Origin: Dipteris shenzhenensis
Lineage: Eukaryota
Assembly (NCBI GenBank): GCA_047967505.1
Contig: CM106538.1
Strand: one strand, 5' to 3'
DNA length: 64,000 nucleotides
This document shows positions 5,624 to 41,500 of this stretch, piece by piece (the first letter of the stretch is position 1; every line of letters begins with the position of its first letter). A model generated the notes under the pieces. That model was not told where the DNA came from, did not search any database, and saw only the letters and a program-made list of their open reading frames with translations. The position numbers and the translations under genes are program-made.

Positions 5624-8600
5624 TGTACGCCATCTTCTGGTGATTCTAGTGATGCCCTATAGGCCATGGTATGTGCCTTGTAGGCATAAATTAAGGCACT
5701 TGTAGTGCCTTTTAGGCCACATAGGACACTTAGTCCTATGTGACACCTAGGACACTTAGTCCTAGGTCTAGGTACAAGTACTTTGTACTCTTTCTTTTCT
5801 ATTATCCTAGTTGACGTGACGGCGTTTCTCATCGACCCTTGTACCTTGTACGTGCTCCGTTTTGTCTACGTGACCCTTCAGTGGTATCAGAGCCCAGATT
5901 TGCTTCTTGCGTCATTTTTCCATACTATCCGTATAGACACGTACGGATTCCGTATGCTTCCTCCAACGCTTTTTCGTCGCCAAAACGTGCCTCATTGCTG
6001 GTTCCAGGCTGAGGCGACTGCTTGTAGGCTCCATCTGCAGCATTTTTGAGGTCCTCTGCAGTACCCGTGGCCATCTATCGCCACTTTTGTACTACAAATC
6101 CAGGCGCCTAGCTCCCGCGACCTCAACTAGCCTCAGATCCAGGTGTCCAGCTCACGTAAGTCATCTGCAAGAGGCGTCCTGCTATCGCAACCTGCTCAGA
6201 GACCTCCACAGGAAACACCTGCAGCCACGCATTCCTTTCAAAGTGCCTAAAGGCAGTTCCAGTTACGCTCCAGCCGTTTTTTGCACTTCAACCTGCTGCA
6301 GCAGCTCCGTGGTCTGTTATAATATACCTACAAAGGTCTTTTAAGTCTCAGCTTTAAGTTCAGAGAACCAGAAGCTGATTCACAAGCAATGTTTACAGTC
6401 TTTTATTGTTTTTTATAGTTTTTGCTGTCAAACCCTAATTTCCAACAGAAAATTTAGGGCTTTTCACATCTGGACCTTCAACCTGTCAATACAATACTTT
6501 GGACAAGGTTGACAACTGAAATCTTTCCAAAAATTGAAGTTTTCAGTTAATTTCAGGTTCAGGATTGTCACATTGTGCCACGTCATCACTTAGGTCAACA
6601 AAATTTGGGGCTTTTGTGTTGGGAGCTCAATTTCAACTGGTGTTTGAGACAGTAAATCGTACTTTTGCAGTTTAAAGCCTTGAGGCTATACATTGGGTCT
6701 GATTATCAGACATTAAGTCTTTTCTGCAAGACATTGAGTCAGATTATCATACATTGGGTCACATTTGCAAACATCTCAGCAAAATTTGGGGCATTTCTGC
6801 ATTTGCCCTCTTTTTGGCCTATTTGCCCTCATTAAACTTGGGGCTTTTGCCAGATTTGCTGCTTTTGCACAGTCACATTTGGGTCAGATCTGCATTTGCC
6901 CTTTGATTTGGGTCGGAAATTTGCAGATATTTGCTGTCATTTTTGGACAGCCAGCTTTTCACAGTGATAGCCTTGAGGCTTTTGGGTTTTCGGGTCTCTT
7001 TCAAGGTATCACATTTGCTATGGCTAGGAACAATCAAGATTTATTTGCTGTTCTTCGTGAAGATGATAAGTTGGATGGCACCCACTATCCGATGTGGTCT
7101 TATCTCATTAAACATATTCTTGTTGCAAAGCATTTGTGGAATATTGTTTCTAGGGTTAATCTGAGGCCAGCCAATGCCACACTGGTTGCCTCTACTCCTG
7201 GTCCCTCTGCAAGGGGGTACTACTAATGCCTCATCCTCTAGCAATCCTGCTACTGCTCTTCCAACTCGGGAACAATCAAGATGGGATGCAAGAGATGCAA
7301 ATGCACATTCATGTATTGCTTTATCATGCAAGAGAATCATTATTCCACACATCCCGTCTTGCAGAACAGCAAAGGATGCTTGGGGATAAATTAGCTTCTC
7401 TCTATCACAGTCGCAATGAGGCACGTTTTGCATATTTGAGAAGGCACTTACAGGAAATCAGCATGAATGAAGGTGACTCTATGGATGCATACTTGACAAA
7501 GATCAAGGACCTCATGGAACAACTTGCCAACATTGATGAGGTGCTGCCAAATTCACAGCTTATCAATACGACATTGAATGGACTACCAGATACATATCAA
7601 GGGTTTGCTACAACCCTTCGATTAGTGCCCATGGGTAATCCAGACCACTATTCTTTTGATCAGCTAGTTACTTTGCTTTTGCAGGAAGAGCAAAGTCGAG
7701 CTAATAGACAAGCCATTATTCCTGATCATGCATTTGCTTCACAGCAAACAGGAAGAGACAGGGCTTCCAAGCCTATGGGCAAGCCTAAATCTGCACATAG
7801 CAGCTGCAATTCCTCTCATGCATCTAAAAATATAGCAGATAAGTCAAAGAAGAAAAGATGCAACTATTGTCGCAAGCCTGGACATGACATTTCAAAATGC
7901 AGGAAGCGCATCGCTTCGGAGAAAAAGAAAGCAGGATTGACAGTTAATGCCTCACATGCTATTAAATCCCATGAGTCAGTAGATGCTTCTCATGCACATG
8001 CTCTTCAGGATGATGGGGCATGGGCTGTCCATTGTTCATTTGACCCCTCCAAAGCTGATGCACTCTTTACTGCTAATGATGCTCAATCCTGGTACTTTGA
8101 TAGTGGTGCTTCCAAGCATGTCACATCTTGCAGACAGTTGTTTCACTCTTTAGCTGATGCACCTCGAGGGGGGATTGTCACATGTGCTAATAATGCTTCA
8201 TATGCCGTAAAAGGAATTGGAGATGTGCAGCTCACATCTATTTCAAGTCATCTTGTCACTTTGACAAATGTTCTCTTTGTGCCTGGAATTGAAGTCAACC
8301 TGATCTCAATTTCAGCAATTGGTACTTCAGGTTTCGGAGTGATTTTTGATGGCTACAGATGCCTTGTTTATAATCTTCGTGAAGACAATGCCATAGTTCT
8401 CACTGGCACTTTGCAAAAGGGGCTTTATCACCTTGATCATCACTCAGCTGCACTTTCTATTGAAGCATTTGCTATTTCAGATTCATAGCTTGCTGAAACT
8501 CATCTTTGGCATGAGAGAATGGGTCACCTCAATTATAGAGCTCTTGCAAAGCTACATTCACAGCAGATGGCAAATGATGTATTCCAAACATGTGTGTGAG

Positions 8601-18100: not shown

Positions 18101-20875
18101 GCTGTTGTAATGCATGTGGCCATATCTGGCATGCCATAATTCTGCATTTTGCATGGCAACTGTAGGGGTAGAAATTGCCAAAGCATGAGCTGCTCTTTTC
18201 TCAAAAATATCAAGCTGAAAAAGCCCACGCAGCAGAGTACCAGATAACATTAAGGCATAGTTAGCTTCCCTGTCCCGAACAGCACATTTGTCATCCTCAA
18301 AGATGACCTGAAATCCCCCTTTGTTAAGAGTGGACACTGAAAGGAGATTTTTGGTTATGCCAGGCACATATAAGACATCAGAAAGTCTGAAAATTGAGCC
18401 ATCAATTGCAGTGAGCTCAACTTCTCCTGTGCCACGTACTGAATATGAGGAGTTGTTGGCACAAGTGACTTTCTTACCAACAGGAGGTGGATGCAAGGAA
18501 GTAAAGAGACACTTCCTCGAAGTGATGTGCTTGGATGCACCGCTGTCAAAATACCATGTGTTCAGTGTTTCATCAACACTGAAAGCAGATGCATCTGAAG
18601 GAGAGTCAAAACTGCAAGTCAAAAATGCATATGTATCATCATTGCAAGAAGCTGTACTATCCCGAGCATCTGGAACAGCCAACCTAGAATCAGAAATGCA
18701 AGATAGAAAGGCATAATCTTGACCAACAAAGTTGGCTGCAGCATCCCCACTGTCAGATGCACAAGGGGCTGAATCTGAAACAGCCATTCCTGAGCTGTTT
18801 TTCTTTTCCTTTGCAATCCTTTTCCTGCATTCTGCTATGTGATGACCTGGCTTTTTGCAGTAGTGACAAAAACCCTTCTTTTTGGGCTTGCTTGCATCAC
18901 TTTTAGCCTTTTGTGAAGGCTGTCCTGACCCACTGGAAGGCTGATTTGCTGCTGTCTTTGCCTGTCCCTTTGTTTTTTATTTAAATTTTGAGAGCATGGC
19001 TTGTTCACCTGCACGTGAAGCCAAATTTTTCCTGGTCTGCTCTTCCTGAAGCAGAAGTCCTATCAGCTCATGAAAAGAAAGAGGATTTGCACCCCCCCTC
19101 AATGATAAATTCAGCGAAGTGTGAAAGCTGAGATAAGACTCAGGAAGAGAATTCAGAGTGGTAGTAATCATCTCTGAATCAGGAATAATTTCATCTATGT
19201 TTAACAACTGCTCTCTAAGATCCTGTAGCTTAGTGAGGTGGGCTGACATGGAGTCACCCTCCTCCATATGTGTATTGCTCAACTCTCTTTTTAAAAAAGA
19301 TACCCTGGCATCATTCCGTGCTGCATACATGCTTTCCAAAATATCCCACGCTGCCCTGGAGGTCTTACACGACCGGATATGCGGAATGATTGATCTTTTT
19401 ACTGAAAGAGAGATGCATGACAAGGCTAAGGCATCCCGTGAATCCCATCTCTTTTGCTCAGGAGTATTGACTGTAGCTGCACCAACAACTTGACCTGCAG
19501 CTGCACCTTGTGCACGACCTCTTCCACCTCCTTGCTGAGGAGGGGTAGTAGGTGCAATATCTGCTGGTCGGATTTCATCCCCATTGACATAATCCCATAA
19601 ATTGCGAGAAATCAGAATATTACGTACCATGAAACTCCAGAGGGAGTAGTTGGTACCATCCAATTTGTCTTCCTGTGAAAGACCACCGAACTGGAACTCA
19701 TTCTGATTTTGATGGGCCATATCTGAGAAAGAGATTGAAGCAGATACAAAGCTGAATTCCCTTACTGGGAATAAAATGCACAACTCCCAAAAACACAGCC
19801 AAGCACGGGCTGTATATGCAACTTAGATTTCTGCACTTGAGCTTTCAGAAATCTGTCCAAGCATAAAACACTCTCTAAAATCTGCCAAAAGTGTTCCAAA
19901 CACTCCAAGAAAGGCAGTATGTACTGAATACTCCAAAAAATGCTCTCCAAACACAAAAGCCCCAATTTGTGGCTAGAAATTGCAGCCAGAAAGGGGTAAA
20001 AATGCTAATATCTGCAATTTTGCTCTTGATATAGCTCCAAACTTGCCCAATGATTGCAATGTCTGCAATCTACAAAATGCCCCAAATTTACTCCAAAACA
20101 ACTGCACCACACTGTAGTTTTCTGAAGAATGAGCCTGTCAAAGAACACCCGAGGCTGACAGCGACTGGTGCAGATCTGCAAGGACAGACTATACGAACTG
20201 TACGGTCAGTGTGTACGACAGTACGGTGGAGTGTACCGATGCTCTTGCGACAGACAAAACAGACTGTACGGCGCTGTACGGAGATGTACGGACACCTGTA
20301 CGGAGCTGCACGGACGCCTGTACGGAGATGTACGGACGCCTTTTACGAAACGTACGGATGTGGTACGTCGATGTTCGGAAGCAGTAAGAAGCTGTACGGC
20401 AGGCGAAATTGTACGGCGAGCACGTGTACGGCGATGTACGCAAATGGCGACACTTGTACGGCGATGTACGCAAAGGACGACACTTTGCGTCAGAATTCCG
20501 TACAGTCGTACGGACTGTACGGACAGATTGGCGCAGGCTGAAAGTCGAGGCTGAGTGTTGGAACTGAAGGGAGCAAGGAGCACAAAGCTCTTGGACCTGC
20601 TCTGATACCAAATGAAGGTGAGAGAATGAGAGCAAGAGGGAGTGAGAGAGTAGAAAGCTTGGAAGCTGTAGTTGCAATAGAATAGAGTGTAAAGAGTACA
20701 ACACAAAGTGAGTAGGATAAGGTTTTGTCCTAGTGACAAAACCTTAGTAGTCACTAACCATAGTTAGTGAACTAACTGCAGTTAGGGGGAAAAACCTCTA
20801 AATGAGGGAAAAGTGCCCCTAACTAACTTATTATATTACATTGGTCACTGCTGAATTATATCTATAATTCCAACA
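15162..20875 (-). mobile_element. Ty1/Copia element 2, full length and young, inserted in Gypsy RT
   Basis: 263-bp LTRs 15162-15424 and 20613-20875 differ at about 2 sites. TSD CTTTC. Reverse PBS-Met at 20599-20610, PPT at 15425-15430. Confidence 0.97.
15460..19720 (-). pseudogene. Copia-2 gag-pol with three lesions
   Basis: Starts MAHQNQ; in-frame TAA at 18977-18979. Relative to the sister copy there is a 79-bp deletion near 17084 and a 4-bp deletion near 15587. All domains are present. Confidence 0.93.
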
Positions 20876-23651
20876 CTTTCGAGACCACAGAGCCTTTGTG
20901 GGTACATTCTTTGATGACATGATTGTATTTTCGAAAAATGAGGAGCATCGGAAGCATCTCGCAATTGTGTTCGCTGAGCTCAAGAAGCAAAGGCTGTTCA
21001 TAAACCCAAAAAGAGTGAGTTTTTCATGGCTGAGATTCATTTTTTGGGACATTGTGTTTCCAAGGATGGGGTTCATATGGATCCAACTAAAGTGGAAGCA
21101 ATATGAAGTTGGCCACAACCAAAGAATTTGCATGAGGTTCGTAGTTTCTTGGGTTTGTGTTCCTACTACCGTCATTTTATCCATCACTTTGCAGAAATTG
21201 CAGCCCCTATGCATGCACTTTCCAAGAAGGAAAGGCCTTTTCAGTGGTCCAAGTAGAGAATTACTCTTTTGAGGAGTTGAAGCGCAAGCTTGCAACAGAT
21301 CCGGTGCTGATTTTGCCTAACTTGAGGAAATCTTTTCATGTGCATGCGGATGCTTGTGGTAAAAATGGTATTGGAGCTGTCCTCACACAGGATGGGCATC
21401 TTGTAGCTTATGAGAGTCGCATTTTACAGCCAAATCAGTTACATTTACAGATTTATGAGAAGGAGATGTTGGCTATACTTCATGCTCTATCCACTTGGAA
21501 ACATTATTTATTGGGAGCTGATTTTACAGTACAGATAGATCATCAATCTTTGCGCTACTTTCTGACGCAATCTAAGCTGTCCGAGAAGCACATGAGGTGG
21601 GCAAACTTCTTGTCAATGTTTCATTTTCAGATTGTACATGTTGAAGGCAAGAAGAATGTGGTTGCAGGTGCTTTGTCCAGGAAGCCACAAGTTCTTTATC
21701 ACAATGAGTTGGATGTAATGAAGGATTACTTTGCGGAGGATGAGCAATTTGTTGAAATATATGGCCAGCTTAATAATGGTAGAGGCACAATCATTATGCG
21801 TTTAAGGATGGGTTTATGATGATGCATGACAGACTGTGTGTAACTAAGCAGCTAAGGCAGAAGGTTATGAGTGAATGTCATGATCTACCATATGCAGGAC
21901 ATCGAGGTATTGATGCTACTGCGTCGCGATGGAGCATTTCTTTTATTGGCCTACACTGCGTCGCGATGTTGAGGAGTATGTTCGCACATGCCTAACCTGT
22001 CAAAAGGTGACGTATGATCACAGGAAGACTCCTGGACTGTTACGTCCTTTGCCCATACCTGATGGACCATGGGAGAGCATAGCCATGGATTTTATTTTTT
22101 ATTTGCCGAGGACACCTACTAGTAATGATGGAATATGGACGATCACTGATCGCTTCAGCTAGCAGGTGCACTTCATTCATGTACGGAAGAAGATTGTGGC
22201 AGATCATATGATGAAGTTATTTATCCAGAATATCTTCAAGTATCATGGTATGCCAAAGTCCATTGTGAGCGATAGAGACCCGTGCATGACCAGCTTGTTT
22301 TGGCGGGGACTTTTTGAATATATGGGCACTACTCTCCTACTTTCTTCTGCTTTTCATCCACAGACCGATGGGCAATCGGAGGAGGCTAATTCCACAGCTC
22401 TAGATTTGCTGAAATGCTATGTGTCGGAGCACCAGTCACAGTGGGAGAAGTTTTTACCATTAGTCGAGTATGCATACAATAACACAGTACATTCTTCCAC
22501 AGGTAAAGCTCCATTGAGATAGTGGGAGGCCAGCATAAGATTCCACCCATCTTGCACATGAAAGATAATTTTTTTGAAGCTGATAGGTATGTGGAGAGCT
22601 TGGGCATTGCTTATCAGAAGGTGAAACAAGCATTGCAGAAGTCACAAAAGAAGCAGGAAAAAGGGCAACAAACAAGCACAGGTGTGACGTTGCCATCAAG
22701 GAAGGTGATTATGTCTTGCTGCGTTTTCAGAAAGCAAGGCTAAAAAGTACACAGGGTCGTACTTGACTATTTCCTAAGCTGAGTATGAGGTACTATGGGC
22801 CTTTCAAGGTAACTCGGCAAATTAATGATGTGGCATTTCGCTTACAGTTGCCTGACCATTGGAAGATTCACAATGCTTTCCATGTGAGTCTCCTTGAGCC
22901 TTTTCAAGGTGATGTGCCTACAGATCTGCCTTCGGAGATCCAGCCAGAGATGGAAGACATGAATGAGATCCTTGTACCCGAGCAGATTCTAGCACGTAGG
23001 GAAAGGAAGCTAAGGAGGAAAGTTGCACGACGCTATTTGGTATAATTTTGTATTTATTTATCATTGCATGTGAAGTGGATGGACGAGGGCGAGTTCACAG
23101 ATACTCCTCAGGTGTTACAGCTTTACCTTGAGGATTTCCAGTTGGAGCCCAGTTTGCAGGGCGCCAGGTGTCTGTAGCATTACTTGATGCACAGGGGGAG
23201 AGTTATCGCTTCCATTCCTTTTGTACAGACCCGCTCATGTATCTAGAGGATACTTGATGTTGCATTTTGTTTCACCCAAGGTACTGGTTGCTGACAGTAT
23301 CTTCGCCGTGAGGGCCTCTATGATTGGTGTGCTAGCCACTTGGTTTTGATGCATCTTATGTGCAATGTATTTTGTATTTGTTACCATGGCTCTACAGATA
23401 CATATTCATTGTTGGTTGACCTGTTGGCGGCATTGGTATACTGTCCTTTTAGGTTTGGTTGGTCTGTTGGGTCACTCCCATTTTAGACTTGGTTGATCTG
23501 TTGGCCGCATTGTTGGCTGTCTTTCAGATTTGGTTATTTTTATATTTCAGCTTTGGTTATTTCACTTGCTTTCGATTTTTCCATTGCTATTATTCCTTTT
23601 CGTTTGGTTTGCAGGCAAATGAGGACATTGCCTTCTTTCAAGAGGGAGATC

Positions 23652-24935: not shown

Positions 24936-25523
24936 CCTCCTCCATGTGAACCTATGGATGGTCTCGGAGGGCTGCATGCTTGCACAATGCTGTCAGCCTG
25001 GCCAGGGTGTCTCTAAAGTATATCACTAGAGGCTACTCTCCATATGGAATTTGTGAGGTCACCTCCCCATCTGTGAACCCGCGAATGAGGAGAGCAAAGG
25101 GGAGATGGACCATTGTGTGTTGTGGAAGACATGTGGGTATTGATTTGGGATGCCACATGGTCAGATCTAACATGGAACAAGGACTGCCACGTGGACAGCA
25201 CATTGGCTGTCATGTGGGCAGATAAAGATAATGCAAGAAAAAGGCTCACTATGCAAACACAAAACAAAAAACATGGGGCCGACACATGGGCAGCACATAG
25301 GCTGCCCATGTGGTCAGCACAACAAGAAACAGTACCTGGCTCACAGGAAGACTATGGTGCAGAAGAAGCAGCAACAGTGCTAGGAATCCTGCCAGATGCA
25401 GCCATGATGAAACGTGGCATGGTCTGGGACTTGTTCAGCCACTGTATGGCCTGTTGGATGACCTGAAACAGCACTGAGATGATTCCATCAGCCTGCATGA
25501 AGGCATGCACATCTGTACAGACC

Positions 25524-26105
25524 TGTACGGGTGGCTGCAGGTGCCAGTGCAAAGCTGGAATAGAAGATCCAGGGCAGAAGCACGTCCAGAAGACTGGCGG
25601 GGATGCTAAAGCATGGCTGAGACTGATTGGATCAAAGATCTGTCCAGGAAATAGTCTAGACATAGGCCCTGACTGGGGCTGCATATGGCCTAGGCCCGTG
25701 GCTGTGTGCCACTTGGCCAGGCAGGACCAGCAGGGCCAGCAAAGGCTGGCTAGATCCAGTACAGAATGAGGGTTGGCCAGATCAGCTTCTGGCCCCTATA
25801 AAAGCGAGCACTCTTGGGCTCATTAGATATCCATTGGAGGAGCATATTGGAGCTGCAGAGAGCCTGCCTCAAGGACATTTCAGGGACACAGGAGATGTCT
25901 ATTTGGAGCAGACAGAGAGCTCAACAAAGCCTTCACTCTTGGCTGTCTATAAGGCAGCTAGGAAGGCAGACCATAGGGGGACATTATGCCTCACCATTGG
26001 CTGCACATCAGGGCAGCAAAGAGGTCAAGTCTTCACAGCATACACTGCCTTAGTTTTGGCTGTCCAGGGGGGCAGCTTGAAGGTGTGATTGCGGGCACAA
26101 TAACA
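25524..26105. repeat. Possible solo LTR
   Basis: TGT..ACA ends flanked by AGACC at 25519-25523 and 26106-26110; TATAAAA at 25797. The match could be chance and the LTR may begin near 24990. Confidence 0.35.
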
Positions 26106-27398: not shown

Positions 27399-28215
27399 CT
27401 AGCCCAGTAAAAACACACACAGTAAAAAAGAGGATTAGCTACGCAATACAGTACTTGAGAAAGCACCAAGCAGAAATTATTCTACGTAAATTTTTCTATT
27501 GTCTCAATCCCAGAGTCAAGTTACTATCCCCCCAACTTGTAATGTCTATCATTTTCAGCAATTCTAAGGGTCTGATTCAAGCACCTCCTCTTGCTTGTTT
27601 TTCTTCTAGAAGTTTCGTGCCCATGGTTAATTGAATTTTAATAGTGGTTTTTATTATTAGTAGAAGGATTGTAGGCCATCTCATGGGCTATCCATAGATG
27701 CCACTTATACCTTGGTATGTGCCTTGTAGGCCTAGTTATAGTCAGTTAGGACTATTGGTACACTTAGTTTATGTCCCATCTAGGTCACTTAGGGCACTTA
27801 GTCCAGTTAGGGCAGTTAGCCCTAGGGTTTTGTTATGTTGGCTCTCCCTTGAGCCTCCACACTCAATTTTTGCAGCAATCTAGTACAGCATCTCGTTTTT
27901 CTCCTTCTTACCTCCATTTTTGAGCTTCCATTGCTTGCCATAGCCAACAGTGGTATCAAAGCAAGCCGGGAATCCATTCCCTCAAACAACTTTCCCAAGC
28001 TGTTTGGCAGCCTCTGGAGCTCTCATTCCTGCTGGTCTTGCTGGTTTTGACACTCCCACGAGTGTTTGAGGCCTTTCCAAGGACTTCTATCGCGAAAAAC
28101 CTCATTTTGTCGCAAGAAGACCGCACTTTGGAGCAACCATCGCGAAGGGAACTGTGTTCCGGTGCATTTTCCAGCCCGCTGCAACCACACGTGTGCATTT
28201 ACAGCAACTGTACGG

Positions 28216-28876
28216 AATCTGTACAACAGTACGAAACCTGTACGGCCATCCATACACTGTACGGACAGTAGACACCTGCATTTACTGCATTCTCGATTCC
28301 CGAAACTGTATGGGCCGGACCTGCAGCGCTTAGGGCTGTACGGACTGCCTTGGGGTGCATGCCAGCATTTTGAAGCTGTTTCGAGGTGCGAGCCAGCATT
28401 TCAGAGCTGTTTTGTGGTGCATGCCAGCATTTTGGACCTGCCTCGAGCTGTATGACGACTGTAGGAGCTTTTTGGAGCATGTTGAAGTGATCTGGAGTTC
28501 ACTCCTTGAGCCCATTCTTCCTCATTTGGCATCCCTTTGCCTCGAATCCGTACAACAGTACGAAACCTGTACGGCCATCCATACACACTGTACGGACCGT
28601 AGACACCTGCATTTACTGCATTCTCGATTCCCGAAACTGTATGGGCCGGACCTGCAGCATTTAGGGCTGTACGGACTGCCTCGGGGTGCATGCCAGCATT
28701 TTGAAGCTGTTTCGAGGTGCGAGCCAGCATTTCAGAGCTGTTTTGTGGTTGCGTGCCAACATTTTGAAGCTGCCTCGAGCTGTATGACGGCTGTAGAAGC
28801 TTTTTGGAGCATGTTGAAGTGATCTGGAGTTCACTCCTTGAGCCCATTCTTCCTCATTTGGCATCCCTTTGCCTCG
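28216..28876 (+). repeat. Tandem duplication (2 x ~330 bp) in the Copia-4 leader
   Basis: Two near-identical units start at 28216 and 28545. Confidence 0.92.
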
Positions 28877-31800
28877 GGCTGCGAGTTCTCCTCCATTGAA
28901 TCTCTTTCTCTCCATTTCTTAGTGCTCTCCTCCTCGTGGGAGCACTTTCTTTTGCTATAACTCTCATTTCCAGCCTTCATTTGCTCGCATTCAGAGCCTT
29001 TCACTACTGTTCTTTTGGGCTACATCATAGAGTAAGCTGTTGTTGCATTGGTTCTTTCCAATTTCTGCTTCATTTGCATTTTGGAAAGGCCTCGTGTTGC
29101 CTTGGAAGGCCTCATGTTGCCTTTGGGGATTTTTCTTGCAACAGGTACACCTTGGGACAGCAGAGTCTCTTGCAAGCATAAGCTTTGAAGCTTGGGCAGA
29201 TTTTTGTTACTTGATTCTGAGAGGTTGCCTTTCTTCATTTGCTTTGCCAGTTGGTGCATTTGTCTTGTATTTCAGCACCATGTCTGGTGGCAAAGATGAT
29301 TTGTTTGGGATGCTTGGGGCTGATGACAAGCTTGATGGCACCAATTATCCCATGTGGTTATACATGATGGGACATGTTTTGGCATATTGTTTCAGGTTCT
29401 GAGACCAAGCCTACACGCACTGTTACTTCTGGTGCTACACCTACAGCCTCTGGCTCTTCAGGTGATGGTTCTAATGCTATTTCCATGACACCTGCACCTC
29501 CTGCTATAGGCGCTTTGCCTCCTTCACAGGAGCAAATTCAGTGGGATGGTCATGATGCCAAAGCACATGCCTTGATTGCTCTTTCAGTGGAACGGGTTAT
29601 TATCCCTCACATCCGGTCTTGCAAGACAACTAAGCAAGCATGGGATCAGCTTGCATCATTGTATCAGGTGCGGAATGAGGCGAGGGTTGCCTATCTCCAC
29701 AAGTAGTTGAAAGATTTAAAGCTTGATGGAGGTGGTAACATGGATGCCTATCTCACTAATGTGAAGGACTTGAAAGAGCAGTTGGCCAACATTGATGAGA
29801 TTATGCTTGATTCTCAGCTTGTTTCTAATACCCTTGATGGGTTGCCTGATTCATATCAAGGCTTTGCTACTACATTGAGGTTGGTTACAGGAGGTGATGT
29901 CAATCCTTTCTCATTTGACCAGCTGGTTGCTTCTTCAGGAGGTGCAAAGTCATGTGATACACAATGCTTCTATGGCTAGTGATCAAGCATTTGCTGCCCA
30001 TCACAAACACAAAGGTAAAGGCAAGGTTTCAACTGGAAAACCCTCTCATTCTCATGCTGATCATTCACACGGTGCCTCTTCTTCAAGGGATAACAAAAAG
30101 AAGAAGAGATTATGTAATTATTGCAAGAAACCTAGGCATGACATTTCTGAATGCAGGAAGCGCATAGCATCTAAAAAGAAGAAGAAAGAGTCTGGTCTTG
30201 CAGTATCTGGTTCTTCTAGTGCAGAAGATCAACATAAGTCCGCTAATTTTGCACAAGACCAGCATTGGGCTTTCTTGGTTACATGTCAATATAATCTTGA
30301 TGTTCATGATGCTTGTATGGCAGTTTCAGATGTTCGTGATGCCTGGTTCTTTGATAGTGGTGCTAGCAAGCATATCACTTCCTGCAGGAAGTTATTCAGC
30401 TCATTGGAGCTTACATCTCAAGGGGCCAGTTGTAGGCCATCTTCTGGTGGTTCTAGTGATGCCCTATAGGCCATAGCATGTGCCTTGTAGGCATAAATAT
30501 AGGCACTTATAGTCTTAGTGCCTTTTAGGCCACATGACACTTAGTCCTATGTGACACTTAGTCCTAGGTCTAGGTACAAGTACTTTGTACTCCTTTTTTC
30601 ACTACACTAGTTGACGTGACGGCTAAGACTCTATCGACACTTTGCACCTTGCTCTCTCTCTATCATCTAACGATCCTACAGTGGTATTAGAGCCACGTTC
30701 AGATTCGTCTCCTGCCCCTGGACTCGCACCAGCCTCCTTCATCCGTACAGTTGTACGGTATGGACGACCGTACTCACAACTTGCTCCGTACTTGCGTCGC
30801 CGTACAATCGTACTTGCTCTGTACTTGCTTCGTCGTACAGTCGTACTTGCTCTGTACTTGCTTCGTCGTACAGCCGTACAGATTTGAATCTGCATCGCCC
30901 CGTACAGCCCGTACACCATACAGTTTGGTACTTGCATTTTGTACACCGTACAGCTATGTACTTGAGCAACTGTACAAATCCGTACCTGCACTACGTACTT
31001 GTCCGTATAGGGTACTGTACTCCTCTCCGTACCTGTATCATGTACAATCAGCATACATGTCCGTACTGTGCTTCCGTACACCGTACACCCGTACACTGTA
31101 CTACGTAGTACATGCAACCGTACAACCGTACATTGGATTCCGTGCTGATATCTGTACTGTTCCGTACATCAGTTCAGTACCCATGCAGTACGTTGTACAT
31201 GCATTGTACTTGCTCCGGGATTTGGTGCATTTTTTCAGTCAATTTGTGGACAGCAAGTCCTAATTTTATAGTTGCAAGCCTTGAGGCTATTTTTTTGGTA
31301 TTTGGTCTGCAATTTCTCGTTTGATTGCAATACATTGGGTCAGATTGGAGAACATTGAGTCACATTTGCAGGACATTGAGTCAGATTATCATACATTGGG
31401 TCACATTTGTAAAAATTTCAGCAAATTTGGGGCTTTTCTGTATTTGCGCTCTTTTTGGCCTAGTTGCCCTCATTAAATTTGGGGCTTTTGCCAAATTTGC
31501 TGTTTTTGCAGTGAACATTGCCTGCCACAATCACATTTCGGTCAGATCTGCATTTGCCCTTTGATTTGGGTTGGAAATTCGCATATAATTGCTGTCATTT
31601 TTGGACAGCCAGCTCTTTGCAGTGATAGCCTTGAGGCTTTCGGGTTTTCAGGTCTCTTTCAGAGTATCACATTTGCTATGGCTGGGAACAATCAAGATCT
31701 ATTAAGCATTCTTCGTGAAGATGATAAGTTGGATGGCACCAACTATCCAATGTGGTCTTATCTCATGAAACATATTATTGTTGCAAAGCATTTGTGGAAT

Positions 31801-34755
31801 ATTGTTTCTAGGGTTGATCTCAAGCCGGCCAATGCTACGGTGGTTGCCTCTACTGCTGGTCCCTCTGCAGGGTATACTCCTCCTGATGCCTCATCTTCTA
31901 GCACTCCTGCTGCTGCTCTTCCAACTCAAGAACAGTCAAGATGGGATGCAAGAGATGCAAATGCACATTCATGTATTGCTTTATCATGCAAGAGAATCAT
32001 TATTCCACACATCCAATCTTGCACAACAGCAAAGAATGCTTGGGATAAATTGGCTTCCCTTTATCAGATTCGCAATGAGGCACGTGTTGCATATTTGAGA
32101 AGGCAGTTACAGGAAGTCAGTATGAATGAAGGTAATTCTATGGATGCATATCTGACAAAGGTCAAGGACCTCATGGAACAACTTGCCAACATTGATGAGG
32201 TGCTGCCAAATTCACAGCTTGTCAGTACCACACTGAATGGACTACCAGATACATATCAAGGGTTTGCTACAACCCTTCGATTAGTGGCCATGGGTAATCC
32301 GGACCACTATTCTTTTGATCAGCTAGTTACTTTGCTTTTGCAGGAAGAGCAAAGTCGAGCTAATAGACAACCCATTATTCCTAATCATGCATTTGCTTCA
32401 CAGCAAACAGAAAGAGGCAAGGCTTCCAAGCCTATGGGCAAGCCTAAATCTGCACATAGCAGCTGCAATTCCTCCCATGCATCTAAAAATACAGCAGATA
32501 AGTCAAAGAAGAAAAGATGCAACTATTGTCGCAAGCTTGGACATGACATTTCCAAATGCAGGAAGCGCATTGCTTTGAAGAAAAAGAAAGCAGGATGGAC
32601 AGTTAATGCCTCACATGCTATTGAATCCTATCAGCCAGCAGATGCTTCACATGCACATGCTCTCCAGCATGATTGGGCATGGGCTGTCCATTGCTCATTT
32701 GATCCCTCCAAAGCTGATGCACTCTTTACTGCTATGATATACCTTTGTAAGACTAGAATAAGTCCAATCATACCTTTGTAATGCACTCATTACTACTAAT
32801 GATGCTCAATCTTGGTATTTTGATAGTGGTGCTTCCAAGCACATCACATCTTGCAGACAGTTGTTTCATTCTTTAGCTGATGCACATCGAGGGGGGACTG
32901 TCACATGTGCTAATAATGCTTCCTATGCTGTAAAAGGAATTGGAGAAGTGTAGCTCACATCCATTTCAAGCCATCCTATCACTTTGACAAATGTTCTTTT
33001 TGTGCCTGGAATTGAAGTCAACTTGATTTCAATTTCAGCAATTACCACTTCAAGTTTCAGAGTGATTTTTGATGGCTACAGATGCCTAGTTTATGATCTT
33101 CGTGATGACAATGCCATAGTTCTCACTGGCACTTTGCACTTTATCACCTTGATCATCTAGTTCTCACTGGCACTTTGCAAAAGGGGCTTTATCACCTTGA
33201 CAAATGTTCTTTTTGTGCCTGGAATGGAAGTCAACTAGATTTCAATTTCAGCAATTGCCACTTCAAGTTTCAGAGTGATTTTTGATGGCTACAGATGCCT
33301 AGTTTATGATCTTCGTGATGACAATGCCATAGTTCTCACTGGCACTTTGCAAAAGGGGCTTTATCACCTTGATCATCACTCAGCTGCACTTTCTATTGAA
33401 GCATTTGCTATTTCAGATACACAACTTACTGAAACTCATATTTGGAATGAGAGAATGGGTCATCTCAATTATAGAGATCTTGCAAAGCTACATTCACAGC
33501 AGATGGCAAAAGATGTACCTCAAACTCACACAGTTTCCAAACATGTGTGTGAGGGTTGTCTTTTGGATAAGATGCATCGGTTTCCTTTTCAAAAGAATTG
33601 TCCAAAACTCTCACAATGGAAATCGCCGTTAGTGCACAATGATGTATGTGGCCCAATGAGGACAAATGCCATTGGGGAATACAAGTATTTCATGACTCTC
33701 ATTGATGACTTCACAAGATATTGCTAAGTATATCCTTTAAAAGCCAAATCTGAACTTTTCTTATGCTTTCAGAGGTGGCTGAATATGGTTGAGAATGAAT
33801 CAGGATGCAAGCTTGTCACCCTCAACACAGATACAGGGGGAGAGTATATGTCAAACAAGTTTGATGCATTTTTGTCTTCAAGGGGCATTGTTCACTCATG
33901 CACTACTCCTTACACTCCTCAACAAAATCCTCTTTCTGAAAGGAAAAATAGGTCCACAATGGCGATGGCCAGATGCATGCTTAAGGCCAAGTCTTTGCCC
34001 AATAAATTTTGGCTTGATTCAGTGATGTGTGCCAACTATGTGCTGAATAGAACCTATAAGGGCATTGAAGACTGTTACACCTTATGAAGCATGGAAAGGC
34101 AGGAAGCCTTCACTTTCACACATGAGAGTTTTTGGGTCTCTTGCATATGTTCATGTACCATCTCAGCTGAGACATAAGCTTGATGACACGGCAATCAAAT
34201 GCATATTTATTGGTTACAGTCAGGAGAGCAGAGGCTATAGGTTATACCAACCAAATACTGGGAAGATTATTATCAGTAGAGATGTAATCTTTGCTAAACA
34301 TTCAGCTTCTCCTCTTGTGGACTGCAAAGCTAAGCCAGATGTTGACTTGTTTGATGCCTTTGAATCTTGGTTACCTCTGCCATCCTTAGAAGAGGATTTT
34401 GATCAGCAACATGAGCCTCCTGCAAGCCCTTCAACAAGCAATGATCAGCCAGAACCCCATGCTGATTTGCAGATTTCTCTTCCAGCACAAAATGATCCCA
34501 GTATTCATGATGCAGTGATTGAAGAAAGAGGTGTCAATAGACAGCAAAGGCAAGTTCCCAGATGGCTTCTTGATACATTGAGGGACAGCAAACAAGATCA
34601 GTCTTTTGCTGCCCGGACAAGCTCAGGGAATAGACAGATGCATGGTCACTTTCTTGACTTTGCACTCCTTGCTACAACTTGCAATGAAGAGCCTCTGTGC
34701 CATAAAGATGCTTTTGACAGCAAAGAGTGGATGCATGCAATGAGAGCTGAGTTAC

Positions 34756-35926
34756 TGTCACCACAATGTAAATATCCTAAGTCAAAGTACAGTTGACCAT
34801 TTATTTGATCATAATTGAAGAGTTTTATATGTGTTAATTATGGTCAAAGAGTTCTTTTAATGGTCAAAGAATTGACTACGGTCAAAGATACTTGACTCTG
34901 GTCAAGTAAACTGACTTCGGTCGGGAGACTTGGTTTATTACCAAGAGGGTTAACTACGGTTAACCAGAGAACTACAGAGCTGACTACGGTCAGAGAGTGT
35001 TGACTTCGGTCAATGAGACTTGGCATGCGCCAAGAGGGTTAACCACGGTTAACCAAGACGTGCCAACTTCGGTTGGAGAGTTGTGCCAACTTCGGTTGGA
35101 GAGACTTGGCTATAATTAAGGCGCCTCGATCCTTGATCAAAGCCCCTTAATTATGATCAAGAGCGTTGACTTCGGTCAACGAGAGTATATATATATATAT
35201 ATATATATAATTTTTTTATTTTTAATTTTTTTGGGTGTGGGGGAGGGGGGGGGGGGGTTGTTATGTGTGCACATGTATTCAATGGGGACGCCCACCGTGA
35301 CTAGAACTAGTCCACAAGTTAAATTTGCTTGCAAAGCGCTAACAATTAATGGGTGCCATGGTGGTGCACTTTAATTAATTGTTGCAGGTACTAGGAAGAG
35401 TTATTTTCCTAAGCGTTACGGGAGCCTAATCAGAGTCTAGGAGGCGGTTCGAGTGACCAAGTGCTTCGAAGACTCCAGAGTTACCCTTAGTGGCATGTAA
35501 TTAGGAAAGTAGTGTAGAAATTGACAAGTGGCTTATTGCCAAGAAGGGGAGCCTAAGAGCTCATGTAATGATTCATTCATTCGCGTTTTGGATTATGTAT
35601 GAACAGCTCTACGCTGAACTATGTACTTCATCTTCTCTCAAGTACTAAAATCCTTCAGGGGGGTCCACCCCGACTGTTGTCCTGGGCCCTAGTGTCTCTG
35701 TTGAGAAAGGGAGAGAGGGAAAGAAATGAGAGTGTTGTTGGTTGTTTTTCTACGGGTATTATTTCATTGGTATCAAAGCCAAGGCTCATAGCCTTCTCAA
35801 GCTGTGATGATCCAAGAGATAAGGAGGGAAAGAAGCAGAGACCCACCGTGACCACATAAAGCGTTGAGGTGAGCGTAACGTGCACCTGAGCAAAGGAGGG
35901 AGTCGCCAAAAGTAACAAGGCCTATT
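34756..35926 (+). mobile_element. Unclassified LTR element X: ~1 kb 5' LTR, PBS-Met and short leader
   Basis: Starts TGTCAC exactly where Copia-3 homology stops. Ends TTTCA at 35766, followed by TGGTATCAAAGCC at 35768. Confidence 0.78.
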
Positions 35927-38599: not shown

Positions 38600-41500
38600 T
38601 CCCAAGTTCGAAGTCTTCTGAAAGGCTTTACACTTGGTTCCCTTTGTTACATGATATCCCTTGTACATTCATAGGTGGCTATATCCTTTTGGATGAACAT
38701 GTGCCACCATGACCAAAAAATACCAGGTATTCTGAGACGTTTCCAGAATACTTCAGCCCATCCCATGGAGGGGGGTTTGTAGGCCATCTTCTAGTGGTTC
38801 TAGTGATGCCCTATAGGCCATGGCATGTGCCTTGTAGGCATAAATATAGGCACTTATAGTCTTAGTGCCTTTTAGGCCACCTAGGACACTTAGTCCTATG
38901 TGACACCTAGGACACTTAGTCCTAGGTCTAGGTACAAGTACTTTGTACTCCTTTTTTCACAAGACTAGTTGACGTGACGTCTAAGACTCTATCGACACTT
39001 TGCACCTTGCTCTCTCTCTATCATCTAACGATCCTACATCAGTGTCACATGTGCCAATAATGCATCATATACCGTGAAGGTATTGAGCAAGTTGCTCTTA
39101 CTTCTGTCTCTGGTAGTATTGTTACTCTGTGCTTTAGGTTCCAAGCATTCGTAAGAACCTCATTTCTATTTCAGCCATTGCTACATGTGCCTTTCACGTT
39201 CTTTTTGATGGTGTTAGGTGTGCAGTGTATGATGCTACACATGCCTTTACCATGGTTTTGAATGGCACATTGTCTAGAGGTCTTTAGAGACTTAATGCTT
39301 ATGACAGATGTTTGGATGATGATGCTGCACTTGCCGATGCACATGCCTTTGCTCTTGATTCTACCATGGCAGATACTCATTTGTGACATGAGAGGTTTGG
39401 ACACCTCAATTTTGGAGCCCTGGTGAAGTTATATAAGGAGGATATGGTTGTGGATCTTCCCAAAATGCATATGCCCACCAAACATGTTTGTGAACCATGC
39501 TTGCTTGGTAAGATGCACCGTGCTGCGTTTCCCAAGGATGGGAGAGTTGGTGCTTCACGCAAGCTTTATCTGGACCCATGAAGGTTGCAACCCTTGGGGG
39601 GTTCTACTATTTTGTCACTTTTATTGATGACTTCACCAGGTACACTTGGATTGAAATCCAAATCTGAAGTTTCTTCATGCTTCAAGCACTTTATTGCCAT
39701 GGCTGGGAATGAGAGTGGGCTGCACATTGCTCACCTTGATACAGACAGGGGGGGTAAAAACATGTCGAAGGAGTTTGTTATTTTTTTGGCTTCCTGTGGC
39801 ATCAATCATCGATGCATAGTGCCTTATACTCCTCAATAGAATCTCGTGGCTGAGCGGAAAAATAGATCAATGATGGAGATGGCAAGGTGCATGTTGAAAG
39901 GCAAACATTTTCCTAAGAAGTTGTAGTCAAATGCGGTCATGTGTGCAAATTACATCTTGAATAGATGTCATACAAAGGCATTGCAGACTATCACACCTTA
40001 TGAGGCTTGGACGGGTCAAAAGCCTCGCATTTCCCACATGAGGACTTTTGGATGCTTAGCTTATGCTCATGTGCCTTCACAGAAACACACTACGTTGGAT
40101 GATAAAGCTGTCAAGTGCATTTTTCTTGGGTATAGTTCAGAGAGCAAGAGCTATAAGCTAATCAGCCCCGCCCGTTGTTGATGCCCCTGACATATTTGAC
40201 ATGATGCCTTTGTTTCCATCCAATGCTCGGGATGATGCTCCATCTGAGGTAGTACCTCCTCCATCTGTTGGTCATTTGCAGCCACATGTGCAGCCAGAAA
40301 TTCAGCCTGATATGCCTCTCATTGATCAGGATCATTTGCACAGGGCTCTTGACCAGGAAGAGCAGAAATTCAAGAGCCCAAAAAGGTACCCCGTTGGCTC
40401 CTTGACACATTAAAAGACAGCAAACAAGACACTCCTCTGCCAGCCCGTACGAGAGCAGCTGTCCGTAAAGAGCATGCTAGTTTTGTTGCTTATGCTTTGG
40501 TTGCTACAGCATGCAATGAAGAGCCCTTATGTCATCAAGATGCCTTTCAAAATGATTGTTGGATGAAGGCCATGCAAGCTGAACTGGATTCTATCCATCA
40601 GAATAACACTTGTGTGATTTGCCTCCTGGCAAGAATGCCATTGGAACTAAGTGGGTTTACAAAATCAAACGGAAAGCTGATGGTTCAGTGGACCGTTACA
40701 AAGCCCGTCTTGTTGCTAAGGGCTATGCTCAGCAGCATGGCATTGACTTTGAGGAGACTTTTGCTCCCACTTCCAGGATCACTACTATTCGCATTATTAT
40801 TACCTTTGCTGCCCACTTTCATTGGCAGATACATCAGCTTGATATTAAGACAGCTTTCCTTCATGGGTATTTGCAGAAAGAGGTCTATGTTTCCCAACCT
40901 CCTGGCTTTGAGGTTGAAGGTTCTGAAAGCAAGGTATGCCGCTTGAAAAAGGCCCTCTATGGATTGAAGCAGGCACCTCGGGCTTGGTATTCGAGAATTC
41001 ATACTCATTTGCTCACACTTAACTTTCAGAACAGCCCTACAGAGGCTACCCTTTACATCCGCAAGCGTGGGACAGATTTGCTAATTTTAAAACCTTTATG
41101 TGGATGACATGCTTGTAACTGGGACACATGCTGAGCAAATTGCAGATTTCAAACTTGATTTGCAGCAGACATTCGCTATGTCTGATCTTGGTCTTTTGCA
41201 CTACTATCTGGGCATCCAATTCGCTAGCAGTGAGGGGCATTTTGATGTCACAATCCAAGTACATTGGACAGCTTTTGCAGCGTTTTCAGTTTGAGGATTG
41301 CAAGCCAGTATCCACACCATTAGAGACTGGTTTTCACTTCTCTTCTGAAGATGGCAGCAGTACGTGTGATGTCACTCTCTATCAGCACGCAATTGGTTGT
41401 TTGATTTACCTTGCCATACAAGACCTAATCTACAGTATGCTGTCTCACAGTTGAGCAGATATATGCACCGCCCATCTATGCACCATGGGCATGCCATGAA

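What the first reader, a model, noticed from the sequence alone, without database searches (positions are those of the whole stretch)
30743..31210. Ultra-dense GTAC (SBP-box/SPL core) array in the Copia-3 leader
Seen: 39 GTAC tetramers in ~465 bp by hand count, against about 2 expected at uniform composition. Many are CCGTAC or TCGTAC with variable spacers, so this is motif enrichment more than a simple tandem repeat. CpGs are retained here although the coding region is CpG-poor. Known: GTAC, extended to CCGTAC(A/G), is the binding core of SBP-box/SPL factors and of the copper-response element bound by CRR1 and SPL7. Inference: the element may carry an SPL-binding platform just downstream of its PBS, coupling expression or escape from methylation to the miR156-SPL age pathway or to copper status. 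It could also act as an intronic enhancer or SPL sink.
Basis: partly seen in the sequence, partly recalled or inferred. Interest (0 to 1): 0.8.

Follow-up and report, generated by a model that had tools for sequence, protein, structure and literature searches.

The report
GTAC-box array in a copia leader
A plant copia-type retrotransposon carries about forty copies of a short GTAC-centred word packed just behind its replication primer site, and two other copia families nearby carry the same word at the same place, which points to a protein-binding control module rather than a chance repeat.

Summary
There are 39 GTAC in 468 bp (30743-31210), where 1.3-1.8 are expected.

- **Location.** The array starts 51 nt after the tRNA-iMet primer-binding site, in the roughly 1-kb leader of an old, broken Ty1/copia element. 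That element is nested in another copia.
- **Recurrence.** A young copia of another family has 21 GTAC in 326 bp at the same place. A third family has two small clusters.
- **Shared word.** The word is the asymmetric (T)CCGTACAG. Of the window's 20 CCGTACAG, 19 lie in these three leaders. The word is sense in two families and inverted in the third. It fits the published SBP consensus TNCGTACAA at 8 of 9 positions.
- **No specific RNA fold.** Permuting the repeat units leaves folding energy unchanged.

Best reading: a homotypic array of double-stranded-DNA binding boxes in an exchangeable CpG-island leader module. SBP/SPL proteins are the best candidate binder.

Caveats:
- A sister copy of the same family lacks the array.
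- 0 of 8 distant relatives have one.
- 38% of the array is recent tandem duplication.
- CpG richness is general to these post-PBS leaders, not specific to GTAC.
- Binding, expression, methylation and host species could not be tested.

It is a new variant of a known kind.

The parts
30430..30680 (+).
   Evidence: 93.5% identical to 38777-39038. The LTR alignment shows the triplet kept in all 4 LTRs of elements A and C and decayed in the solo LTR at 2671-2823. The TATA-like box was read.
30682..30693 (+). Primer-binding site TGGTATTAGAGC
   Evidence: 1 mismatch to TGGTATCAGAGC. It lies directly after the LTR end ...cctaca.
30743..31210 (+). GTAC-box array: 39 GTAC, of which 17 CCGTAC, 12 CCGTACA, 12 TGTAC and 7 GTACTTGC; CpG o/e 1.28
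30779..30879 (+). 33-bp unit x3.1 inside the array (92% matches): a recent tandem duplication
31074..31132 (+). Run of 7-8-bp CCGTACA(A/C) units inside the array
31211..31677 (+). Distal leader: CpG-poor (o/e 0.32), homologous to element A from 31327 on, with two sense-strand AATTTGGGGCTTTT boxes (31424-31437, 31476-31489)
31678..32781 (+). gag of element C (Retrotran_gag_2, DUF4219, CCHC knuckle). The downstream pol is broken by stops and frameshifts.
38777..39038 (+). 3' LTR of element C. Flanking 5-bp duplication CCAGT / TCAGT; C is inserted in the pol of element D.
20200..20525 (-). Sister array in young copia element B (LTRs 15162-15425 / 20613-20876, 99.2%): 21 GTAC, 15 CCGTAC, 11 CCGTACA, CpG o/e 1.67. 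It starts 78 nt after the PBS at 20599-20610.
28205..28345 (+). Cluster 1 in the leader of copia element D (PBS 27951-27962): 6 GTAC, 4 TGTACGG, i.e. the same word inverted relative to the element
28545..28676 (+). Cluster 2 in the D leader: the copy of cluster 1 made by a 333-bp tandem duplication (95.8%); 5 GTAC
5910..5955 (+). Vestige in element A (same family as C): ccatac / ccgtat / acgtacgg / ccgtat directly after the PBS at 5882-5893, followed by about 730 bp unrelated to the C array

Best explanation
The array is a homotypic cluster of binding boxes for a protein that reads double-stranded DNA. It forms the CpG-rich module that these copia elements carry between the primer-binding site and the conserved distal leader.

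The functional word is the asymmetric (T)CCGTACA(G) with an invariant GTAC core. The best candidate reader is a host SBP-box/SPL zinc-finger factor. Many low-cost sites packed at 7-14-bp spacing would recruit the factor just downstream of the LTR promoter. They would then act as a downstream enhancer, and possibly as a shield against silencing. This would tie transcription of the element to SPL activity.

The array grows and shrinks by slippage and unequal exchange. It can be swapped between related elements, so each family, and even each subfamily, has its own version.

Shown here:
- the anatomy
- the recurrence in three families
- the asymmetry and the inversion of the word
- the absence of an arrangement-specific RNA fold
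- the CpG island

Inferred: that a protein binds, that it is an SBP/SPL factor, and that the effect is activation.
For: 1. **Recurrence at the same place in unrelated families.** Three copia families carry the word in the leader after the PBS. They are only 66-72% identical in pol at the DNA level. The counts are C 39 GTAC in 468 bp, B 21 in 326 bp, and D 6 and 5 in 141 and 132 bp. The background is 2.7 per kb. All four stretches of the window with 6 or more GTAC per 500 bp are copia 5' ends.
2. **The word is longer than GTAC and is shared.** CCGTACAG occurs 20 times in the window against 0.53 expected, and 19 of the 20 lie in the leaders of B (8), D (7) and C (4). TNCGTACA occurs 21 times against 2.1 expected, and 18 of the 21 lie in the leaders of B (9), D (6) and C (3).
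3. **The flanks are asymmetric, not palindromic.** CCGTAC versus GTACGG is 17:1 in C and 15:1 in B. The B logo is T(-3) 11/20, C(-2) 16/20, C(-1) 18/20, A(+1) 15/20. This fits the SBP consensus TNCGTACAA with GTAC core (PMC7490389, passages).
4. **In D the same word stands inverted relative to the element.** There, GTACGG versus CCGTAC is 7:1. A double-stranded-DNA reader tolerates this; a single-stranded-RNA reader would not. By contrast, the other leader box, AATTTGGGGCTTTT, is sense in 8 of 8 cases.
5. **The young element B keeps CpG in its array while losing it elsewhere.** Its LTRs are 99.2% identical. CpG o/e is 1.67 in the array but 0.25 in its coding part and 0.00 in both 200-bp windows over its LTR. 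The lineage has therefore lost CpG everywhere except here.
6. **Decay in C spares the GTAC core.** There are 12 TGTAC against 2 CATAC (one-sided binomial 0.006). CpG decay that keeps GTAC is over-represented relative to decay that destroys it.
7. **There are precedents of the same design.** The gypsy 5'-UTR holds 12 Su(Hw) zinc-finger sites in 340 bp (PMC2374998, passages). Sirevirus copia LTRs hold high-copy palindromic boxes that delimit CpG islands (PMC2829016, abstract and passages).
Against: - Element A, about 90% identical to C in gag-pol and in the distal leader, has no array. Its leader has 4 GTAC in 1128 bp and 0 CCGTAC. The array is therefore not needed by the family, or A is a recombinant.
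- Element F, a short copia-type element with a perfect PBS, has 0 GTAC in its 631-bp leader.
- 0 of 8 metagenome loci encoding a gag relative (43-46% identity) have an array. The most found was 5 GTAC in any 300 bp. These loci represent only about three families.
- 38% of the C array, and much of the B array, is recent tandem duplication. Part of the copy number therefore needs no selection.
- Only 3 of 39 sites in C meet TNCGTACA, and the final A of the consensus is not preferred.
- The inversion argument rests on one family with 4 independent boxes, doubled by a duplication.
- CpG richness after the PBS is general (5 of 5 elements here, 4 of 4 relatives with a PBS). It therefore does not point to GTAC or to SPL.
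- The array lies in the transcribed leader, roughly 240 bp downstream of the TATA-like box. This is not the usual place for plant transcription-factor sites.
- No binding, expression or methylation data exist here, and the host species and its SBP genes are unknown.
Confidence: 0.45

Rival explanations
1. Neutral by-product. The stretch after the PBS is a hypervariable part of the leader in which short words expand by polymerase or reverse-transcriptase slippage and unequal exchange. On this view the GTAC word does nothing.
For: Tandem Repeats Finder marks 178 of 468 bp of C and several overlapping 10-44-bp periods in B. A sister element of the same family lacks the array and has about 790 bp of unrelated sequence instead. 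0 of 8 distant relatives have an array. Tandem repeats in untranslated parts of plant LTR retrotransposons are a known source of satellites (PMC7004042; search listing and start of abstract only).
Against: Three families that share no alignable leader sequence would have had to expand the same 8-9-mer by chance. 19 of the window's 20 CCGTACAG lie in their leaders. 21 of the 39 GTAC in C lie outside any tandem tract, with variable spacers. CpG is kept in a lineage that has lost it elsewhere. TGTAC outnumbers CATAC 12 to 2.
Confidence: 0.25
2. RNA-level signal. The repeated GUAC palindromes or CCGUACA words in the genomic RNA serve dimerisation, packaging by the Gag zinc knuckle, or clustering of RNAs by many weak intermolecular pairings. 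The place is where retroviruses keep their packaging and dimerisation signals.
For: The array lies between the PBS and gag, and GTAC is self-complementary. The word is sense-oriented in the two large arrays. The leader folds better than dinucleotide shuffles (z -2.95, 0 of 20 shuffles as stable). Both gag genes carry a CCHC knuckle.
Against: Permuting the GTAC-to-GTAC units leaves the folding energy unchanged: z 0.36 for C sense and 0.21 for B sense, with 93 and 80 of 150 permutations at least as stable. The stability therefore comes from word content, not from an evolved structure. The conserved flanks CC...AG are not self-complementary in the sense RNA, and the antisense strand folds more tightly than the sense strand (-166.9 against -141.3 kcal/mol in C). 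In D the word is inverted, which gives a different RNA word. Element A lacks the array. There is no Rfam match in the window.
Confidence: 0.15
3. A DNA-level role that does not involve SBP proteins. One version is another GTAC- or CGTA-reading factor. Another is a CpG-island-like module that keeps the 5' end of the element free of silencing marks or acts as a boundary, with the GTAC word only one of several interchangeable fillings.
For: A CpG-rich post-PBS stretch is present in 5 of 5 copia-type elements of the window with four unrelated sequences, and in 4 of 4 relatives with a PBS. Element F fills it with ACCTCTTC x5, while A has no strong repeat. The gypsy array acts as an insulator (PMC2374998).
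Against: It does not explain why three families converge on one 8-9-mer that matches the SBP consensus. The only GTAC-core readers I can name in plants are SBP proteins (recalled, not from a call).
Confidence: 0.1
4. The array is coding: the open frames across it (30751-31263 +, 30623-31117 -) encode a repeat protein or an upstream ORF product.
For: Frames of 164-182 codons are open across both arrays on both strands.
Against: 0 of 5 such ORFs match any Pfam family at E up to 0.1. Frames are open on both strands, as expected from a word set poor in stop codons. The unit lengths (7, 8, 10, 11, 22, 33 bp) mostly break the reading frame.
Confidence: 0.02

Closest known systems
SBP-box/SPL binding sites and copper-response elements (GTAC core, consensus TNCGTACAA)
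   Same: Invariant GTAC core. The preferred flanks C(-1), C(-2), T(-3) and A(+1) give (T)CCGTACA, 8 of 9 positions of the consensus quoted in PMC7490389. Sites occur in both orientations across families.
   Different: Known sites are a few copies in promoters upstream of host genes. Here there are 21-39 copies in 330-470 bp inside the transcribed leader of a retrotransposon. Binding was not tested, and only 3 of 39 sites in the reported array meet TNCGTACA.
Sirevirus repeated-motif (RM) boxes (Bousios et al. 2010, PMC2829016; abstract and passages read)
   Same: High-copy short symmetric boxes in non-coding DNA of plant copia elements, with divergent spacers, whose first and last units delimit a CpG island of about 400 bp. 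A regulatory role was proposed from sequence alone.
   Different: The RM core is CGG-CCG, not GTAC. RM boxes lie in the LTR upstream of the TATA box or before env, not after the PBS. The elements here are small (B is 5.7 kb with 264-bp LTRs) and show no Sirevirus hallmarks.
Su(Hw) binding-site array (gypsy insulator) in the 5' untranslated region of Drosophila gypsy (PMC2374998; passages read)
   Same: About a dozen or more sites for one zinc-finger protein, packed with short variable spacers into 340 bp of the 5' leader of an LTR retrotransposon: the same position and the same design.
   Different: A Ty3/gypsy element of an insect, a different word, AT-rich spacers and 12 sites. Its function as an insulator is shown experimentally, whereas nothing is shown here.
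Enhancer in the untranslated leader of Drosophila copia (Wilson, Matyunina and McDonald 1998; seen only as a citation and one sentence in PMC2829016)
   Same: A regulatory region with repeated, symmetric protein-binding words downstream of the LTR in a copia-type element, naturally variable in copy number (the last point is recalled).
   Different: Few copies, a different word, an animal host.
Retroviral and Ty1 packaging and dimerisation signals
   Same: Location between the PBS and gag; palindromic word.
   Different: Those are single, defined stem-loops. Here no arrangement-specific fold exists, the conserved flanks are not self-complementary, and one family has the word inverted.

Membership tests
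Ty1/copia LTR retrotransposon (host of the array) | Paired LTRs, a tRNA-iMet PBS directly after the 5' LTR, and gag then protease-integrase-RT order | tested here: met
   LTR pair 93.5% identical. PBS with 1 mismatch. gag matches Retrotran_gag_2. Integrase-type ORFs follow. The better-preserved B shows gag, Pol_BBD, gag_pre-integrs, rve, SH3_retrovirus and RVT_2 in that order.
SBP/SPL binding-site cluster | GTAC core | tested here: met
   39 of 39 boxes by definition. Decay products that keep the core outnumber those that lose it: 12 TGTAC against 2 CATAC.
SBP/SPL binding-site cluster | Extended consensus TNCGTACAA / CCGTAC(A/G) | tested here: inconclusive
   C has 17 CCGTAC, 12 CCGTACA and 3 TNCGTACA among its 39 boxes. 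B has 15, 11 and 9 among 21. D has 6 TNCGTACA. The final A is not preferred.
SBP/SPL binding-site cluster | Bound by an SBP-domain protein of the host | not testable with these tools
   No host genome. No protein-DNA tool is available.
SBP/SPL binding-site cluster | Response to SPL level, miR156 or copper | not testable with these tools
   No sequencing run could be listed.
Sirevirus RM boxes | High-copy symmetric boxes that delimit a CpG island | tested here: met
   The island (o/e at least 1.0) spans about 200-800 from the LTR start in C and 300-700 in B. The arrays span 313-780 and 356-676.
Sirevirus RM boxes | CGG-CCG core signature; location in the LTR upstream of the TATA box or before env | tested here: not met
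   The core is GTAC and the array lies after the PBS. The feature is as described in PMC2829016.
Simple tandem repeat / satellite seed | Head-to-tail copies of one unit over the whole tract | tested here: not met
   Only 178 of 468 bp are marked, in three separate tracts with different units.
Packaging / dimerisation RNA element | A defined secondary structure that depends on the arrangement of the sequence | tested here: not met
   Unit-permutation control: z 0.36 (C) and 0.21 (B).
Packaging / dimerisation RNA element | Strand-specific word on the sense RNA in all carriers | tested here: not met
   Sense in B and C, inverted in D.
Known RNA family (Rfam) | Match at the gathering score | tested here: not met
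   0 matches in the whole window.

The most novel reading that the evidence does not exclude
A group of plant copia families carries an exchangeable CpG-island enhancer cassette between the PBS and the conserved leader. In several families it is built from 20-40 SBP/SPL boxes. The element thereby reads the host's miR156-SPL clock (or SPL7-type copper signalling) and is transcribed mainly when SPL activity is high, that is, in adult and reproductive meristems close to the germline. The bound array also keeps the 5' end free of CpG methylation. That would be a plant counterpart of the gypsy Su(Hw) array and a new way for a retrotransposon to time its activity.
Probability: 0.3. Interest if true: 0.75.

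Novelty: new variant of a known kind. Interest (0 to 1): 0.5.

Why it matters
Plant retrotransposons are known to borrow host signals through a few sites in the U3 part of the LTR. Heat-shock elements in ONSEN and MYB boxes in Tto1 are examples (recalled, not from a call).

A cassette of dozens of SPL-type boxes in the leader would be different in three ways:
- It would be a new place for such sites.
- It would work by high copy number.
- It would link transposition to developmental age or copper status, giving the element a route to germline-proximal expression.

The wider pattern may be the more general lesson. Every copia-type element examined here and in distant relatives has a CpG-rich island right after the PBS, while its LTR and genes are CpG-poor. 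This suggests a conserved, unmethylated or selected control region that has received little attention.

The idea can be tested directly with SBP-domain binding assays, reporters and methylomes. Dispersed arrays of this kind could also act as sinks or enhancers for host SPL networks.

Tried and rejected
- **Own genome.** None is held for this window.
- **Sequencing runs.** For 30430-31700 none was listed, and no RNA holder was listed.
- **Earlier notes of this scan.** There is nothing on this genome, nothing like the B array by sequence, and nothing by words apart from unrelated phage and bacterial GTAC clusters.
- **Relatives of gag in metagenome contigs.** 8 loci were found and none has an array. 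In viral contigs there was no relative.
- **Protein search with the B gag.** 16 hits, the best at 58% identity, none with a name, so no species was obtained. The protein atlas gave only 'Streptophyta' as the commonest phylum.
- **Rfam.** No match in the window.
- **Pfam on the ORFs that run through the arrays.** 0 of 5 matched, so a coding reading was rejected.
- **Specific RNA structure.** Rejected after the unit-permutation control, although the plain shuffle test looked positive.
- **Literature.** I found no paper describing GTAC or SBP-box arrays in retrotransposon leaders.
  - GTAC + retrotransposon + SPL gave 154 papers; none of the 20 listed was relevant by title or abstract start.
  - GTAC + SQUAMOSA + transposable element + binding sites gave 10 papers, none on this.
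  - CCGTACA + retrotransposon gave 34 papers; none of the 10 listed looked relevant by title or abstract start.
  - DAP-seq + SBP + copia and related terms gave 2 papers. One lists a single SBP-box word among motifs enriched in a Pogo group.
  - 'GTAC motifs' + retrotransposon gave 0 papers.
  - The library omits most subscription journals, so this is not proof that nothing is in print.
- **Errors.** Two search calls failed on term syntax and were re-sent corrected (re-sent as 33 and 51). One Pfam call failed on a frame with stop codons and was re-sent without that entry (re-sent as 16).
Full report
**What is there**

The stretch 30743-31210 holds exactly 39 GTAC.
- Uniform composition predicts 1.8 and the region's own base composition predicts 1.7.
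- The GTAC rate of the window outside the dense spots (2.70 per kb) predicts 1.26, giving a Poisson P of about 1e-43.
- Dinucleotide-preserving shuffles of the region itself average 10.8 and never exceed 20. None of 2000 reached 39.

The boxes are 17 CCGTAC, 4 TCGTAC, 1 ACGTAC and 12 TGTAC, plus five others. On the 3' side, A follows in 19 cases and T in 15. A second box type, GTACTTGC, occurs 7 times.

Tandem Repeats Finder marks three tracts, 178 of 468 bp in all, holding 18 of the GTAC. The other 21 stand in non-tandem sequence at spacings of 5-26 bp. CpG observed/expected is 1.28 in the array, against 0.28 in the coding part, 0.34 in the LTR and 0.32 in the rest of the leader.

**Context**

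The window is a nest of retroelements (self-comparison; Pfam).
- **Element C, the carrier.** Its LTRs are 30430-30680 and 38777-39038 (93.5% identical). The PBS is at 30682-30693 and the gag ATG at 31678. Its pol is broken, and a fragment of another copia is nested at 35941-38599.
- **C sits inside the pol of element D.** It is flanked by CCAGT/TCAGT.
- **Element A** (LTRs 5624-5880 and 11363-11625, 92.8%) is of the same family as C. The two are about 90% identical from 31327 onward.
- **Element B**, on the minus strand (LTRs 15162-15425 and 20613-20876, 99.2%), is a young member of another family, about 67% identical to A and C in the RT region.
- **Element F** (12683-14524, minus strand) is a short copia-type element with a perfect PBS.

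The atlas search places the RT among Streptophyta. The species could not be determined.

**The array is not a one-off**

All four stretches of the window with 6 or more GTAC per 500 bp are copia 5' ends.
- B has 21 GTAC in 326 bp, starting 78 nt after its PBS. These include 15 CCGTAC and 11 CCGTACA.
- D has two clusters of 6 and 5 GTAC about 250 nt after its PBS. The second is a copy made by a 333-bp duplication.
- A has only four degenerate boxes directly after its PBS.
- F has none.

The shared word is longer than GTAC.
- CCGTACAG occurs 20 times in the window against 0.53 expected. 19 of the 20 lie in the leaders of B (8), D (7) and C (4).
- TNCGTACA occurs 21 times against 2.1 expected. 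18 of the 21 lie in those three leaders.

The arrays of B and C share no alignable sequence beyond the word, and their repeat units differ. Either an ancestral array was maintained at the level of the word while everything else turned over, or three families expanded the same word independently. Both cases imply that at least the seed word matters to the elements.

**DNA or RNA?**

The core is palindromic, but the conserved flanks are not.
- CCGTAC versus GTACGG is 17:1 in C and 15:1 in B, read on the sense strand.
- In B the logo is T(-3) 11/20, C(-2) 16/20, C(-1) 18/20 and A(+1) 15/20.
- In D the ratio is 1:7, so the same word is inverted relative to the element.

A reader of double-stranded DNA is indifferent to that inversion. 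A reader of single-stranded RNA would see a different word.

The leader folds better than dinucleotide shuffles (z -2.95 with 20 shuffles). The effect vanishes when only the order of the GTAC-to-GTAC units is permuted. The z values are then 0.36 and 0.21 for the sense strands of C and B, and -0.05 and -0.30 for the antisense strands, with 150 permutations each. The stability therefore comes from word content, and there is no evolved fold. The sense strand also folds less tightly than the antisense strand.

By contrast, a second leader box, AATTTGGGGCTTTT, occurs 8 times in the window, all in the distal leaders of A, B and C and all in sense. That is what a strand-specific signal looks like here.

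I therefore rank a DNA-level reading above an RNA-level one.

**Which reader?**

The consensus quoted for SBP domains is TNCGTACAA with GTAC as the core (PMC7490389, passages read; that paper cites Birkenbihl et al. 2005 and Kropat et al. 2005, which I did not read). The word TCCGTACAG meets it at 8 of 9 positions.

Support is better in B and D than in the reported array, where only 3 of 39 boxes meet TNCGTACA.

In C, CpG decay that keeps the core (TGTAC, 12) outnumbers decay that destroys it (CATAC, 2; one-sided binomial 0.006). This fits a constraint on GTAC in the active ancestors, although TGTAC need not all derive from CGTAC.

No other plant GTAC reader is known to me (recalled). Binding itself is untested.

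**What CpG retention does and does not say**

In the young element B, CpG o/e is 1.67 in the array but 0.25 in the genes and 0.00 in both 200-bp windows over the LTR. The lineage has therefore lost CpG everywhere except here.

The same holds for the post-PBS stretch of all 5 copia-type elements of the window, whatever its sequence. The peak values are:

| Element | Peak CpG o/e after the PBS |
|---|---|
| A | 1.18 |
| B | 1.80 |
| C | 1.42 |
| D | 1.04 |
| F | 0.84 |

Their LTRs and genes run at 0-0.4.

It also holds for the 4 metagenome relatives in which a PBS could be found. Their leaders run at 1.00-1.34, the 300 bp before the PBS at 0.08-0.16, and the coding part at 0.57-0.75. In C, 22 of 33 CpG lie in CGTAC; in B, only 19 of 39 do.

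So the island is a general property of these leaders, and the GTAC array is one filling of it. The island itself is an interesting, apparently conserved feature.

**Against function**

- A and C are sisters, yet their post-PBS modules (5894-6684 and 30694-31326) are unrelated.
- None of the 8 distant relatives has an array, though they represent only about three families and have short leaders.
- A good part of the copy number is recent duplication.

The array is therefore at most an accessory, fast-evolving module.

**Comparison with what is known**

- **Gypsy Su(Hw) array.** The design, many sites for one zinc-finger protein with short variable spacers in the 5' leader of an LTR element, is that of the gypsy Su(Hw) array: 12 sites in 340 bp of the 5'-UTR (PMC2374998, passages).
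- **Sirevirus repeated motifs.** Among plant copia elements the nearest thing is the Sirevirus repeated motif. These are high-copy symmetric boxes with a CGG-CCG core that delimit CpG islands in the LTR upstream of the TATA box or before env, and they were proposed to be regulatory from sequence alone (PMC2829016, abstract and passages). Here the core is GTAC, the place is after the PBS, and the elements are small non-Sirevirus copias.
- **Drosophila copia.** An enhancer in the untranslated leader of Drosophila copia is cited in the same paper.

My searches found no paper on GTAC or SBP-box arrays in retrotransposon leaders. The library lacks most subscription journals.

**Verdict**

My odds are:

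| Reading | Odds |
|---|---|
| Double-stranded-DNA binding array, with SBP/SPL the best candidate | 0.45 |
| Neutral expansion in a hypervariable leader | 0.25 |
| RNA-level signal | 0.15 |
| Other DNA-level role of the island | 0.10 |
| Remainder, including coding | 0.05 |

It is a new variant of a known kind, of moderate interest.

Noticed in passing
window 5894-6330, 20200-20600, 30694-31230, 27963-28900, 13700-14230; loci L002-L005 (PBS to gag): Every copia-type element examined has a CpG-rich, GC-raised stretch of 300-600 bp directly after the PBS, while its LTR, distal leader and genes are strongly CpG-depleted. This holds for 5 of 5 elements in the window and for 4 of 4 metagenome relatives with a PBS, with unrelated sequences filling the stretch.
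   Followed up: partly
window 6451-6464, 6602-6615, 6783-6796, 6835-6848 (+); 19955-19968, 20075-20088 (-); 31424-31437, 31476-31489 (+): A second leader box, AATTTGGGGCTTTT, occurs 8 times against 0.54 expected. All 8 are in the CpG-poor distal leaders of elements A, B and C, and all are in sense orientation. This makes it a candidate strand-specific (RNA-level) signal shared by two copia families.
   Followed up: partly
window 30574-30590, 38932-38948, 5772-5788, 11517-11533; decayed at about 2724 in the solo LTR 2671-2823: A GTAC triplet (aggtacaagtactttgtac) lies about 75 bp downstream of the TATA-like box in all four LTRs of elements A and C. In an older solo LTR fragment two of the three GTAC have decayed by transitions.
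   Followed up: partly
window 12683-14524 (-): A 1.8-kb element with 267-282-bp LTRs (94% identical) and a perfect tRNA-iMet PBS but no gag-pol: a small non-autonomous copia-type element. Its post-PBS stretch repeats ACCTCTTC five times, and a 214-codon open frame of low complexity runs through it.
   Followed up: no
window 30430-39038 within 27669 to about 42000; 35941-38599: Three-level nesting. Element C is inserted in the pol of element D (flanking CCAGT/TCAGT). C itself carries the 3' half, with LTR, of a B-type element in the opposite orientation, 95-97% identical to B.
   Followed up: partly
window 34800-35260: Between the pol remnant of C and the nested fragment lies an array of imperfect repeats of the type gac(t)t(a/c)cggtcaa(a/c)gag. 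It is followed by a (TA)n run and a G run. Another PBS-like word (TGGTATCAAAGC) stands at 35768-35779.
   Followed up: no
window 2-2086 (+); 21157-21819 (+); 56764-60551; 60565-61238: Other transposon remains: a LINE ORF (RVT_1 plus zf-RVT) open at the window start; a Ty3/gypsy RNase H fragment; a copia pol fragment flanked by 630-bp direct repeats (96.7% identical); and a 337-bp tandem duplication (97% identical). No host gene was recognised in the window.
   Followed up: no
window 25460-25530 (-): The only CCGTACAG outside the three leaders sits beside a CTGTACAG and a CCATACAG in unannotated sequence. It is possibly the remnant of another decayed leader.
   Followed up: no
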